DNA of 64,000 bases, from the IMG/VR virus record IMGVR_UViG_2526164690_000025. One strand, 5' to 3'. The position numbers and the translations under genes were made by a program. The DNA is from a virus (lineage: Duplodnaviria > Heunggongvirae > Uroviricota > Caudoviricetes). The notes under the pieces were generated by a model. It saw only the letters and a program-made list of their open reading frames with translations, did not search any database and was not told where the DNA came from. Every line of letters begins with the position of its first letter. Position 1 is the first letter of the stretch. This document shows positions 14,388 to 15,526 of this stretch, one piece after another.

Positions 14388-14422
14388 CTCGTAGAATCTG
14401 GTTTGTTAACAGATTCTACGAG
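14388..14422 (-). other. 13-bp perfect inverted repeat (stem-loop) between moron pair and tail genes
   Basis: ctcgtagaatctg-gtttgttaa-cagattctacgag; no U-tract on the transcribed strand. Confidence 0.4.
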
Positions 14423-14461
14423 TTGTCATTTGTGACAGTATGCTCGCAATCGTAGTGATTA

Positions 14462-15001
14462 CTACCACCAACTGCTAGCTTTCTTCTCTCTAGCTTTTCC
14501 TTCGCTTTGCAGTAAATCTTTACTTCCTGTAGAAATATTTCTATTTGCATCAGCCTCAGACTGAATTACATCTGTCTTAGCTGCTCTCTCCTTCAACTCC
14601 TGCTCTATAAAATCGTTTTCTCGCTGGACACGAGCCGCTTTTGCTTGCAGTTCGAGTTTCATGCTTTCGAGTTGCAGCTTGCGAAGCTCATCCTCATAAG
14701 CTTGATCTCGCTTCTTGTCATTTGCTAGCTCGGCTTCTCGTTTCGCTCTACGTTCATTTTCTGCAGCAACACGCTGTTTTTCGCGTGCAGCAGCGGCAGA
14801 TGCTGCTTTTTCTCTTCTAATACGTTCAGCTTGTGCTTGTTGGCGAATAAGTTCTTTTCTGGCATCCTCAGCTTGCTGCTCTTTAGCTCGCCCTTCATTT
14901 TCCGCTTGAGCAATAGCAGCAATTTGACTTTGCAACGAGTTAGCCAAGGCAGTGCCTACACTAAACGTAGAAAAGATTAGAAATAAAATAATTTTATTCA
15001 T
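14462..15001 (-). CDS. secreted coiled-coil protein (signal peptide, Ala/Glu/Arg/Lys-rich)
   Basis: N-terminal signal MNKIILFLIFSTFSVGTALA, long charged coiled-coil-like region. Confidence 0.5.
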   Translation of the reverse strand: MNKIILFLIFSTFSVGTALANSLQSQIAAIAQAENEGRAKEQQAEDARKELIRQQAQAERIRREKAASAAAAREKQRVAAENERRAKREAELANDKKRDQAYEDELRKLQLESMKLELQAKAARVQRENDFIEQELKERAAKTDVIQSEADANRNISTGSKDLLQSEGKAREKKASSWW

Positions 15002-15004
15002 AAA

Positions 15005-15526
15005 TTATTTCTTTTCTGGACAAGTAGCATTTGGCTGAATTCGAGTTTCATTATCTTTAGTTGAAATAAGCACAGCAAGCCCCGTTGTAAACTGGCATGC
15101 TTTACCAACTTGAGTTGAAGTGAACACCTTAGTTCCTTCTTTATAAGTCAGTGAAACACCTTCAACAATTGTTTTATCACTAACCAAAGAACCAGCCGCT
15201 GCACCAAGAGCCGCACCACCAGTACCGCCAGCTACAGCACCCAGTGTCGATGTGCCTTTAACATTATAACCGGCAACGCCCCCAGCAACAGCTCCCAGTA
15301 CCGCACCAAATGTCTGTGCCGCTTCTTTATTAGCTTTATTATCAACTTTCACTTTAGCTGGAAGCACAGAGATAATATTGACTGTCTTTGTTTCCTGCTT
15401 CGAATTCAATTGAGCGGTATCATAAACATCGGCAGCATAATCAGCACCGCTAGATTGACACCCAGAAAGAAGAATTGCAGATACAACAAGAGCGCATAAA
15501 GTATACTTTTTAGACATAAGAATCAT
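15005..15526 (-). CDS. lipoprotein with glycine-zipper region
   Basis: Lipobox LLSGC; GAVLGAVAGGVAGY...GAVAGGTGGAALGAAAG glycine zipper. Confidence 0.6.
   Translation of the reverse strand: MILMSKKYTLCALVVSAILLSGCQSSGADYAADVYDTAQLNSKQETKTVNIISVLPAKVKVDNKANKEAAQTFGAVLGAVAGGVAGYNVKGTSTLGAVAGGTGGAALGAAAGSLVSDKTIVEGVSLTYKEGTKVFTSTQVGKACQFTTGLAVLISTKDNETRIQPNATCPEKK

What the first reader, a model, noticed from the sequence alone, without database searches (positions are those of the whole stretch)
14388..15526. Lipoprotein plus secreted coiled-coil protein pair at the head of the tail operon, set off by a 13-bp perfect inverted repeat
The first two genes transcribed from the AT-rich divergent region are not obviously structural: a glycine-zipper lipoprotein (LLSGC lipobox) and a signal-peptide-bearing coiled-coil protein. 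A perfect 13-bp inverted repeat (14388-14422) separates them from the tail genes. Envelope proteins in this position often mediate superinfection exclusion or surface modification.
Basis: inference. Interest (0 to 1): 0.45.

Follow-up and report, generated by a model that had tools for sequence, protein, structure and literature searches.

The report
Phage-borne yfgH–yfgI envelope gene cassette
The two genes are a phage-carried copy of a bacterial outer-membrane-protecting gene pair (yfgH–yfgI), sitting where phage P1 keeps its superinfection-exclusion genes, and the inverted repeat belongs to the neighbouring tail-gene promoter; the genes are already annotated in phage P7, but their function there is untested.

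Summary
The window is a P7-type member of the P1 phage-plasmid family (98.5% identical to P7 here). Both ORFs and the 13-bp inverted repeat are real.

The ORFs are P7 Upf50.5 and Upf50.0. They are diverged paralogues of the chromosomal operon yfgH–yfgI:
- **Lipoprotein:** belongs to the SlyB/YfgH glycine-zipper family and is distantly related to the surface-exclusion protein TraT.
- **Partner:** a DUF5384 protein with a signal peptide, predicted as one long (~24 nm) helix.
- **Pairing:** the two genes are adjacent in 79 of 80 bacterial loci.

The cassette (about 14434–15809) lies outside the late tail operon. It fills exactly the slot that holds simABC in P1. It is bounded by the LPsit -22 box on one side and the C1 operator Oc4 on the other. 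About a third of P1-like plasmids carry it, and other temperate phages carry diverged pairs.

The repeat is conserved in P1 and P7. It overlaps the LPsit -10 and the pmgC ribosome-binding site, so it is a promoter/leader feature, not a cassette boundary.

Most likely the cassette remodels the lysogen's outer membrane. Whether the result is phage exclusion or stress tolerance is unresolved. Novelty is modest.

The parts
15005..15526 (-). YfgH-like outer-membrane glycine-zipper lipoprotein gene (P7 upf50.5); the start is probably the ATG at 15517
   Evidence: ORF. 100% identical to P7 Upf50.5. 68% identical to E. coli YfgH, represented by P0093. Keeps all 33 invariant family columns. Family profile vs SlyB 7OJF E 1.8e-9. 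Foldseek SlyB probability 1.0.
15461..15526 (-). Lipoprotein signal peptide (residues 1-22) ending in the lipobox LLSG; the lipid-modified Cys23 codon is at 15458-15460
   Evidence: Read from the sequence. Cys23 is invariant in 40 homologues.
15188..15337 (-). Glycine-zipper helical hairpin (residues ~64-113), the predicted membrane-inserted part
   Evidence: Helices 64-88 and 94-113 in the AF2 model. GxxxG/A motifs. Aligned to the TraT helical region, hhalign probability 93.9%, and to SlyB.
14462..15001 (-). YfgI-like exported all-helical protein gene (P7 upf50.0, DUF5384); signal peptide at 14942-15001
   Evidence: Pfam DUF5384 E 3e-43. P7 annotation. AF2 single helix, pLDDT 88. A yfgH-like gene lies immediately upstream in 79 of 80 genomic loci.
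14434..15809 (-). Exchangeable accessory cassette (P7 type), occupying the slot of simC-simB-simA in P1
   Evidence: P1/P7/window alignments lose homology exactly at the -22 box (14433) and at operator Oc4 (15810). P1 annotation. PLSDB counts.
15527..15809 (-). AT-rich (31-32% G+C) upstream region of the cassette with candidate sigma-70 promoters, e.g. TAGATA-17-AATAAT at 15793-15765
   Evidence: Composition. Promoter scan gave 3 hits against 3.6 expected, so this is not statistically supported.
15808..15824 (+). C1 repressor operator Oc4 (TCTGCTCTAATAAATTT), the right-hand boundary of the cassette
   Evidence: P7 and P1 annotation transferred by alignment.
14388..14422 (.). 13-bp perfect inverted repeat with a 9-nt loop. 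It folds as an RNA hairpin only in transcripts that start upstream of it.
   Evidence: Folds. The 11-bp core is invariant in every P1-like locus here that retains the pmgC leader.
14413..14433 (-). Late promoter LPsit: -10 TAGAAT (14418-14413, inside the upstream arm of the repeat) and the -22 box ACAAATGACA (14433-14424)
   Evidence: P1 and P7 annotations. The same box plus TAGAAT recurs at 49934-49951.
13815..14381 (-). pmgC, first gene of the late tail operon. Three of the four bases of its Shine-Dalgarno GAGG (14390-14387) lie in the downstream arm of the repeat.
   Evidence: ORF. PHROG 1851, E 1.5e-102. Sequence.
16007..16092 (+). c4 antisense RNA of the divergent immI operon (context only)
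   Evidence: Rfam RF01695, 68.4 bits, E 1.3e-12.

Best explanation
The two ORFs form an accessory ('moron') cassette of a P7-type P1-family phage-plasmid. It is a horizontally acquired, selectively maintained copy of the bacterial two-gene envelope operon yfgH-yfgI.

Gene 1 encodes a lipoprotein of the SlyB/YfgH glycine-zipper family. The Gln at +2 implies sorting to the outer membrane. By homology it should insert a helical hairpin into the outer membrane and assemble into rings around outer-membrane proteins and lipid patches.

Gene 2 encodes a Sec-exported protein predicted as one ~24-nm helix. It is the obligate operon partner of gene 1.

The cassette is transcribed from its own AT-rich upstream region next to C1 operator Oc4. 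It is therefore not part of the late tail operon. It fills exactly the slot where P1 carries the superinfection-exclusion genes simABC.

Inferred function: when expressed from the prophage, it remodels and shields the lysogen's outer membrane. I lean slightly toward exclusion of incoming phage (or other agents that must cross the outer membrane), in the manner of the distantly related TraT. Barrier strengthening is the alternative or an additional outcome.

The 13-bp inverted repeat belongs to the conserved LPsit promoter and pmgC leader. Its upstream arm contains the late -10 and its downstream arm contains three of the four bases of the pmgC Shine-Dalgarno. Late transcripts should start in the loop and lack the hairpin. 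Read-through transcripts from the cassette should fold a ~-20 kcal/mol hairpin that masks the ribosome-binding site. This would insulate the tail genes from cassette transcription.

Shown here: identity, homology, cassette boundaries, gene pairing, distribution, purifying selection and hairpin energetics. Inferred: localisation, ring formation, expression in lysogens, the exclusion phenotype and the insulation role.
For: Identity:
- 98.5-99.7% DNA identity to P7, JL22 and RCS47. The genes equal P7 upf50.5 and upf50.0.
- The chromosomal counterparts are annotated yfgH/yfgI in 5420 of 5426 E. coli genomes at about 69% DNA identity. They lie next to guaA.

Family:
- All invariant YfgH residues are kept.
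- SlyB match: profile E 1.8e-9 over the full length; Foldseek E 1.9e-6, probability 1.0.
- TraT match: hhalign probability 93.9%, E 1.5e-7, 73 columns, including a G-x-K-[VI]-x-T-S-T-x-x-G motif outside the glycine-rich part. TraT structures rank 2 and 4 in the fold search.

Partner:
- DUF5384, E 3e-43; single helix, pLDDT 88.
- A yfgH-like gene lies immediately upstream in 79 of 80 loci, mainly gamma-proteobacterial genera.

Slot:
- P1/P7 homology breaks exactly at the -22 box and at Oc4. P1 has simC-simB-simA there.
- The sim region is variable region 4 of P1-like phage-plasmids (PMC9603915).
- simC is a superinfection-exclusion gene (PMC2409434).
- A third cassette type also encodes two signal-peptide proteins.

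Maintenance:
- 167 of about 505 P1-like plasmids carry the cassette at >=99% identity.
- A diverged allele sits in the same slot of E. albertii P1-likes, with pN 0.074, pS 0.63 and dN/dS about 0.06.
- Diverged pairs occur in other prophages, between an antirepressor gene and tail-fibre genes.

Function of the homologue:
- YfgH stabilises the outer membrane. It co-purifies with BamA, LptD, OmpF/C/A, LamB and TonB-dependent receptors (preprint).

Repeat:
-, plus the LPsit annotation.
Against: - No experiment links this cassette, YfgH or SlyB to phage exclusion. Literature searches found none.
- From general knowledge, the P1 receptor is LPS core rather than an outer-membrane protein, so receptor masking of P1 itself is not an obvious mechanism.
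- The only characterised role of YfgH is membrane stabilisation.
- The TraT similarity covers just the hairpin and the following strands. The Pfam TraT score (23.1) is below the gathering cut-off (31).
- The lipoprotein model is of low confidence, pLDDT 55.
- Promoter predictions upstream are not above chance. Expression in lysogens is therefore assumed, not shown.
- The late transcription start is inferred from the annotated -10, not mapped.
- The invariance of the repeat core could simply reflect constraint on the -10 and the Shine-Dalgarno in a backbone that is 96-99% identical anyway.
Confidence: 0.5

Rival explanations
1. Pure host-fitness cargo. The cassette supplies an extra, differently regulated dose of the YfgH-YfgI outer-membrane-stabilising module. 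This would make the lysogen more tolerant of detergents, chelators, antibiotics or complement, as lambda Bor does. It would have no role in excluding phages.
For: The only experimental data for the family show outer-membrane stabilisation. Overexpression rescues defects in outer-membrane biogenesis (preprint). The phage copy retains every invariant family residue and is under strong purifying selection. This fits an unchanged biochemical activity.
Against: Nearly every E. coli already has yfgH-yfgI (5420 of 5426 genomes), so a plain duplicate is largely redundant. The cassette alternates with an exclusion cassette at the same slot. Other prophages place the pair at typical competition or moron positions beside tail-fibre and antirepressor genes.
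Confidence: 0.35
2. The pair are virion or morphogenetic proteins forming the first genes of the tail operon.
For: They lie directly upstream of pmgC-tub-pmgB-sit on the same strand. One GenBank record (phi456) labels them 'minor tail protein' and 'tail tip protein'.
Against: P1 has the same tail genes with a completely different cassette there. The late promoter LPsit lies downstream of the pair. Both proteins have export signals. They are orthologous to a core chromosomal operon conserved mainly across gamma-proteobacteria. The genes at this slot in P1 are non-essential.
Confidence: 0.02
3. A two-component spanin-like lysis pair: an outer-membrane lipoprotein plus a periplasmic helical protein that fuse the membranes at lysis.
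For: There is a superficial resemblance. The pair is a lipoprotein plus a long helical periplasmic protein encoded by adjacent genes.
Against: The mature lipoprotein is about 150 aa with a glycine-zipper hairpin, homologous to SlyB/YfgH. It is not a short o-spanin. The helical protein has an A-L-A cleavage site rather than an obvious uncleaved anchor. The pair is a housekeeping operon in uninfected bacteria. It lies outside the late operon and is absent from P1.
Confidence: 0.02
4. Concerning the inverted repeat only. It is a transcription terminator for the cassette, or a DNA binding site for a dimeric regulator of LPsit, rather than a translational insulator.
For: The P7-type cassette has no canonical terminator after the yfgI-like stop codon. 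P1's simC is followed by one. The hairpin is strong at about -21 kcal/mol. Two other long inverted repeats in the window carry the C1-operator motif.
Against: On the coding strand the stem is followed by GUUUCAAUG, which is not a U-tract, and the terminator scan did not report it. No matching half-site occurs elsewhere in the window. A second late-promoter box in the window has no such repeat.
Confidence: 0.25

Closest known systems
E. coli YfgH-YfgI (chromosomal operon between yfgG and guaA)
   Same: Same two families, same order and same strand, with a short spacer. The lipoprotein is 68% identical and the partner about 48-54% identical (values differ with the alignment method). All invariant residues, the lipobox, two conserved Cys residues and the conserved C-terminal half of YfgI are retained.
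   Different: Carried on a phage-plasmid in the sim slot, with a different AT-rich upstream region. Synonymous sites are saturated relative to the host copy, so this is not a recent capture from E. coli. The spacer is 3 nt instead of 15 nt. The function of the phage copy is untested.
SlyB (PDB 7OJF/7OJG), ring-forming outer-membrane lipoprotein
   Same: Full-length homology: profile E 1.8e-9 and Foldseek probability 1.0. Same topology of N-terminal strand, glycine-zipper helical hairpin and C-terminal strands.
   Different: Only about 25% identity. The YfgH family has two extra conserved cysteines and an obligate DUF5384 partner gene (I do not recall one for slyB; not checked here). Ring formation by the phage protein is not shown.
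TraT, the surface-exclusion lipoprotein of F-like plasmids (PDB 9E2V, 9FS5, 9FSM)
   Same: An outer-membrane lipoprotein carried on a mobile element. It has a homologous helical hairpin and following strands (hhalign probability 93.9%). TraT forms a decameric outer-membrane assembly and was repeatedly co-opted from chromosomal homologues (PMC11733297). This parallels the repeated capture of yfgH-yfgI by phages.
   Different: The similarity covers 73 columns only, and TraT's N-terminal domain is absent. The Pfam TraT score is below the cut-off, and the family profile does not hit TraT chains in the PDB by HMM search. TraT has no YfgI-like partner. This is not a TraT family member.
P1 SimC/SimB/SimA (superimmunity, i.e. 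superinfection exclusion)
   Same: Identical genomic slot and orientation, between the LPsit -22 box and operator Oc4. SimC is also exported through a signal peptide. It is non-essential for lytic growth.
   Different: There is no sequence similarity. The number and kind of proteins differ. simC is followed by a canonical terminator, which the P7-type cassette lacks.
Phage-encoded outer-membrane lipoproteins Bor, Cor and Llp (from general knowledge, not tested here)
   Same: Prophage- or phage-expressed lipoproteins that change the host surface. Examples are serum resistance, or blocking of the FhuA receptor to exclude other phages.
   Different: These are unrelated families of single small proteins. 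No homology was found or sought beyond the Pfam, PHROG and PADLOC scans.

Membership tests
YfgH / SlyB-type glycine-zipper outer-membrane lipoproteins | Signal peptide with a lipobox and lipid-modified Cys; no Asp at +2 (outer-membrane sorting) | tested here: met
   LLSG-C23 followed by Gln. Cys23 is invariant in 40 homologues. Localisation itself is not testable here.
YfgH / SlyB-type glycine-zipper outer-membrane lipoproteins | Full-length sequence homology to YfgH with the family-invariant residues | tested here: met
   E 6.5e-64 and 68% identity to the E. coli YfgH cluster P0093, whose locus is yfgG-yfgH-yfgI-guaA. All 33 invariant columns are retained.
YfgH / SlyB-type glycine-zipper outer-membrane lipoproteins | Glycine-zipper two-helix hairpin and the SlyB fold | tested here: met
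   GxxxG/A motifs at residues 74-108. Profile vs SlyB 7OJF E 1.8e-9. Foldseek probability 1.0, TM 0.58, from a low-confidence model. The Pfam PF05433 hit is below its cut-off.
YfgH / SlyB-type glycine-zipper outer-membrane lipoproteins | Assembly into rings around outer-membrane proteins or lipid | not testable with these tools
   Only single chains could be modelled. The feature is inferred from the SlyB structures and from the YfgH preprint's models.
YfgI / DUF5384 | Match to the Pfam DUF5384 model above the gathering score | tested here: met
   147.8 bits against a cut-off of 25, E 3e-43. The conserved C-terminal motifs are present.
YfgI / DUF5384 | Encoded immediately downstream of a yfgH-like gene on the same strand | tested here: met
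   3-nt spacer in the window. 79 of 80 genomic loci show the same arrangement.
TraT surface-exclusion proteins | Match to Pfam TraT (PF05818) above the gathering score, over the whole protein | tested here: not met
   23.1 bits against a cut-off of 31. Only profile positions 74-160 of 214 are matched. hhalign aligns 73 columns, probability 93.9%. This indicates distant relatedness, not membership.
P1 Sim superinfection-exclusion cassette | Sequence homology to SimC, SimB or SimA | tested here: not met
   No significant BLASTP similarity to SimC. DNA homology stops at the cassette borders. SimB and SimA were not compared as proteins. Only the genomic position is shared.
P1 Sim superinfection-exclusion cassette | Confers exclusion of superinfecting P1 | not testable with these tools
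   Requires infection assays.
Two-component spanins (Rz/Rz1 type) | Short o-spanin lipoprotein and membrane-anchored i-spanin encoded in the late lysis cassette | tested here: not met
   The mature lipoprotein is about 150 aa and SlyB-like. The genes lie upstream of the late promoter. The pair is a core chromosomal operon.
P1 late promoters (Lpa-dependent) | -10 hexamer plus a conserved box near -22 in place of a -35 | tested here: met
   ACAAATGACA-N5-TAGAAT at 14433-14413 corresponds to the LPsit annotation of P1 and P7. A second copy, AATGACTAGCGATAGAAT, is at 49934-49951. Activity was not tested.
Intrinsic (rho-independent) terminators | G+C-rich stem followed by a U-tract | tested here: not met
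   The stem is present, but it is followed by GUUUCAAUG on the coding strand. The scan did not report it.

The most novel reading that the evidence does not exclude
The phage-borne yfgH-yfgI cassette is a previously unrecognised superinfection or surface-exclusion system. It would consist of SlyB/TraT-like lipoprotein rings in the outer membrane, coupled to a ~24-nm periplasmic helical partner. Together they would block adsorption to outer-membrane receptors, or DNA delivery, by incoming phage, and possibly conjugation. In a third of P1-like phage-plasmids it would functionally replace Sim. Several temperate phage lineages would have co-opted it independently from a housekeeping operon. By extension, the chromosomal YfgH-YfgI might also modulate phage susceptibility.
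Probability: 0.3. Interest if true: 0.65.

Novelty: new member of a known kind. Interest (0 to 1): 0.36.

Why it matters
P1-like phage-plasmids are common in E. coli and Salmonella and spread resistance genes. About a third of them carry this cassette, so its effect on the host envelope could be widespread. That effect might be phage exclusion, or tolerance of detergents, antibiotics or serum.

The analysis assigns a family to two 'unknown function' genes that RefSeq currently mislabels. It links the YfgH/SlyB lipoproteins to the exclusion protein TraT. It shows that YfgI is an obligate partner of YfgH, which recent work on YfgH did not address. It also yields a simple testable idea: a hairpin built into a late promoter could keep tail genes silent in transcripts that read through from an upstream accessory cassette.

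Tried and rejected
- **PADLOC defence models:** no hit for either protein.
- **NCBIfam:** nothing meaningful.
- **Single-sequence PDB searches:** no significant hits.
- **PHROG label:** PHROG 1277 names the lipoprotein 'DNA methyltransferase'. I rejected this as a misannotation because the protein is a lipobox-bearing SlyB/YfgH homologue.
- **Lipoprotein structure:** the AF2 monomer model is poor (pLDDT 55). The fold-search ranks for TraT (E 0.12-0.36) are therefore not evidence on their own. The TraT link rests on hhalign, using the F TraT sequence.
- **P1 genome paper:** PMC523184 is not held, so late-promoter details rest on the GenBank annotations.
- **Literature:** searches for upf50.0, upf50.5 and DUF5384, and for SlyB or YfgH in phage resistance, found nothing. 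The TraT structure papers do not mention SlyB or YfgH.
- **Viral contigs:** about 55 'viral' contigs carrying yfgH-yfgI turned out to be a P22-like prophage (TL-2011b type) integrated next to the chromosomal operon. The pair there is host flank, not phage cargo.
- **L009:** this ~102-kb Salmonella contig with a diverged pair next to a Rep3-type replicase could not be assigned to a known phage or plasmid.
- **Other rejected readings:** spanin and virion-protein interpretations (see rivals). The Rfam mir-230 hit on the repeat is a sub-threshold hairpin artefact.
- **Promoter scan:** it gave no more sites upstream of the cassette than expected by chance.
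Full report
**What the window is.**
The segment 13800-16200 is 98.5% identical to phage P7, 99.7% to phage-plasmid JL22 and 100% to an E. coli plasmid. P1 itself matches only the two flanks (43% coverage). All genes of the finding lie on the minus strand. Reading in the direction of transcription:
- C1 operator Oc4 (15808-15824)
- an AT-rich spacer
- the lipoprotein gene (15526-15005)
- the second gene (15001-14462)
- the late promoter LPsit
- pmgC (14381-13815), tub, pmgB and sit

On the other strand, c4 RNA (16007-16092; Rfam 68 bits), icd, ant and kilA diverge from the same region.

**Checking the observation.**
Both ORFs exist as described.
- The first has the lipobox LLSG-C23 followed by Gln. 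Homologues are 170-172 aa, so the real start is probably Met4.
- The second has an N-terminal signal peptide ending A-L-A. P7 annotates it as 20 aa.
- Its mature part is predicted as one unbroken helix (residues 3-178, pLDDT 88), about 24 nm long if extended.
- The heptad pattern is moderate only in residues ~90-140. The centre is E/R/K/A-rich. 'Coiled coil' is therefore plausible but not established.

The inverted repeat is exact: 13/13 bp with a 9-nt loop at 14388-14422. Only eight repeats of this quality exist in the 64 kb, and two of the others carry the C1-operator motif. The RNA hairpin is about -21 kcal/mol, z -6.6.

**What the genes are.**
They are P7 Upf50.5 and Upf50.0.
- A distant DNA search finds the chromosomal counterpart in 5420 of 5426 complete E. 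coli genomes at about 69% identity, annotated yfgH and yfgI.
- The locus of the E. coli protein cluster P0093 is yfgG(DUF2633)-yfgH-yfgI-guaA-guaB.
- The phage lipoprotein is 68% identical to E. coli YfgH and keeps all 33 invariant columns of a 40-sequence family alignment. These include the lipid-modified Cys and two further cysteines.
- A profile of the family hits SlyB (7OJF) over its full length, E 1.8e-9.
- The AlphaFold monomer model is of low confidence (pLDDT 55). Even so, it finds SlyB with Foldseek probability 1.0.
- The partner matches DUF5384 at E 3e-43. Its conserved C-terminal half is the part shared across the family.
- In a scan of one genome per species, 79 of 80 loci encoding a YfgI relative have a YfgH relative immediately upstream on the same strand. 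The loci come from Enterobacterales, Pasteurellaceae, Photobacterium, Aeromonadales, Pseudomonas and a few others. The single exception is a 336-bp contig.

The two genes are therefore an obligate operon and presumably act together. The recent YfgH study does not discuss this.

**Relation to TraT.**
Pfam gives a sub-threshold TraT hit, 23.1 bits against a cut-off of 31. I verified an F-plasmid TraT sequence against PDB 9FS5/9E2V and compared it with the YfgH family profile.
- hhalign gives probability 93.9%, E 1.5e-7, over 73 columns.
- The aligned region covers the glycine-zipper hairpin and the following strands.
- It includes the motif G-[TA]-K-[VI]-x-T-S-T-x-x-G, which lies outside the low-complexity part.

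TraT forms a decameric outer-membrane assembly and mediates surface exclusion. Plasmids co-opted it repeatedly from chromosomal homologues (PMC11733297). The phage lipoprotein is not a TraT family member, but it belongs to the same broader group of helical-hairpin outer-membrane lipoproteins; SlyB and TraT have been shown to form oligomeric assemblies, whereas YfgH rings are only predicted.

**The cassette and its slot.**
Alignments of the window, P7 and P1 lose homology exactly at the -22 box of LPsit (14433) and at the edge of operator Oc4 (15810).
- Between these points P1 carries simC-simB-simA, its own terminator and predicted promoters.
- The window carries the yfgH-yfgI-like pair.
- There is no protein similarity to SimC.
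- simC is a superinfection-exclusion gene.
- The sim region is one of eight variable regions of P1-like phage-plasmids.
- The sim genes are dispensable for plaque formation.

In PLSDB, 505 plasmids carry pmgC plus LPsit. Of these, 167 carry this cassette at >=99% identity and 137 carry the complete P1 sim cassette. The rest carry something else.

One such alternative (pD72-mcr1) encodes two other proteins, each with an N-terminal signal peptide. All three cassette types examined therefore encode exported proteins.

An E. albertii P1-like element has a diverged allele of the pair (88% and 81%) in the same slot, plus three extra genes. Between the two alleles pN is 0.074 and pS is 0.63, giving dN/dS about 0.06. 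All other comparisons, including that with the host copy, are saturated at synonymous sites. These are old alleles under purifying selection, not recent copies of the host genes.

**Other phages.**
- Diverged pairs (74%/68%) lie between an antirepressor gene and tail-fibre genes in integrated prophages.
- A further pair sits next to a Rep3-type replicase on a ~102-kb Salmonella contig that I could not classify.
- About 55 IMG/VR contigs with the pair at one end are not cargo. They are a P22-like prophage (TL-2011b type) integrated just downstream of the chromosomal yfgI.

**The inverted repeat.**
Its 11-bp core (CTCGTAGAATC / GATTCTACGAG) is identical in P1, P7, the E. albertii elements, the third-cassette plasmid and all P7-type contigs examined.
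- The window has two further pairs, giving 13 perfect bp.
- Most P7-type relatives have 12 bp plus a G·U pair.
- P1 and P7 have 11 bp.

The annotated LPsit -10 (TAGAAT, 14418-14413) lies inside the upstream arm. GAG of the pmgC Shine-Dalgarno GAGG lies in the downstream arm, six bases before the ATG.

A start about 7 nt below the -10 falls in the loop, near 14406. An RNA starting there is unstructured (-2.3 kcal/mol), whereas RNAs entering from upstream fold the full hairpin. The coding-strand stem is not followed by a U-tract.

My reading is that the hairpin distinguishes the two kinds of transcript and keeps pmgC untranslated on read-through RNA. This is an inference, and it could matter more for the P7-type cassette. 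That cassette lacks the canonical terminator that follows simC in P1. A terminator or operator role is not excluded.

**How the cassette most likely works.**
Shown here:
- family membership
- export signals
- operon partnership
- slot equivalence with sim
- wide and conserved carriage

From the literature:
- YfgH is an outer-membrane protein needed for envelope integrity.
- It is predicted to form SlyB-like rings.
- It co-purifies with BamA, LptD, OmpF/C/A, LamB and TonB-dependent receptors.

Inferred: the prophage expresses its own version, which corrals or shields outer-membrane components of the lysogen. Two outcomes are possible and are not mutually exclusive:
- Exclusion of incoming phage or other agents that cross the outer membrane. 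The slot, the TraT kinship, the redundancy with the host copy and the moron positions in other prophages favour this.
- Increased envelope robustness. The only experimental data for the family favour this.

I put the identity and non-structural nature of the cassette at about 0.95. I give exclusion about 0.3-0.4 and pure fitness cargo about 0.35.

**Novelty.**
The genes have been annotated in P7 as a lipoprotein and a membrane protein similar to E. coli proteins. The variability of the sim region has been published. New here:
- the explicit YfgH-YfgI/SlyB assignment
- the TraT link
- the obligate pairing of the two genes
- the exact cassette borders
- the recurrent carriage by temperate phages
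- the promoter-embedded hairpin model

This is a new member of a known kind, of moderate interest.

Noticed in passing
window 15005-15526; RefSeq records NC_050152, NC_031129, NC_042128, NC_019445: PHROG 1277 labels this lipoprotein family 'DNA methyltransferase', and RefSeq phage records use the same product name. GenBank record OR339795 (phi456) calls the two genes 'minor tail protein' and 'tail tip protein'. Both labels conflict with the lipobox and the SlyB/YfgH homology.
   Followed up: partly
L038, L060 and about 55 other IMG/VR loci; GenBank JQ011317 (phage TL-2011b): A P22-like prophage (tailspike, endolysin) is integrated immediately downstream of the chromosomal yfgI in many E. coli. 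The first 1180 bp of these 'viral' contigs are 97% identical to the host yfgH-yfgI locus. The phage record therefore contains host flank. Such an attachment site next to the operon could be a route for phages to capture it.
   Followed up: partly
L010:2455-3640 (plasmid pD72-mcr1, NZ_CP035313): A third cassette type in the sim slot encodes two proteins of unknown function (158 aa, phrog_3429; 215 aa, phrog_3933). Each has an N-terminal signal peptide. This or other non-sim, non-yfgHI contents fill roughly 40% of P1-like plasmids.
   Followed up: partly
L005:4032-8298 (E. albertii P1-like contig): The same slot is expanded. It holds a diverged yfgH/yfgI allele plus a 118-aa ORF, a YfjT-family protein and a 389-aa protein with a weak SH3_3 hit before pmgC. 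There is also a 107-aa ORF upstream.
   Followed up: no
window 49934-49951 (-): A second copy of the late-promoter signature (AATGACTAGCGATAGAAT) lies upstream of a minus-strand ORF start. It has no long inverted repeat, unlike LPsit.
   Followed up: partly
window 37856-37887 and 43498-43528: Two palindromes built from the C1 operator motif (TTGCTCTAATAAAT / ATTTATTAGAGCAA). They presumably are bivalent C1 operators.
   Followed up: no
window 14530-14543 and 14979-15017: A perfect 14-bp palindrome, TAGAAATATTTCTA, lies inside the 3' end of the yfgI-like gene. An AT-rich imperfect inverted repeat (16 nt, 88%) spans the stop of the lipoprotein gene and the start of the partner gene. The two genes are separated by 3 nt, which suggests translational coupling.
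   Followed up: no
window 15899-15980 (+): A sub-threshold Rfam hit to the Salmonella sRNA isrK (43 bits against a gathering score of 50, E 2.4e-7). It overlaps the leader of the c4-icd-ant operon, next to the c4-a1b1 target element at 15885-15938.
   Followed up: no
L002:3640-3800 (P1) versus window 14434-14470: P1's simC is followed by a canonical stem-plus-U-tract terminator (AACGCCCATTAAAGGGCGTTTTATTGTTTT). The P7-type cassette has no such terminator between the yfgI-like stop codon and LPsit.
   Followed up: partly
L009 (Salmonella contig ABFBLR010000019, ~102 kb): A diverged yfgH/yfgI pair (61%/44%) lies next to a Rep3-type replicase on a plasmid-sized contig. The contig has no near relative in the phage collection or PLSDB.
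   Followed up: partly
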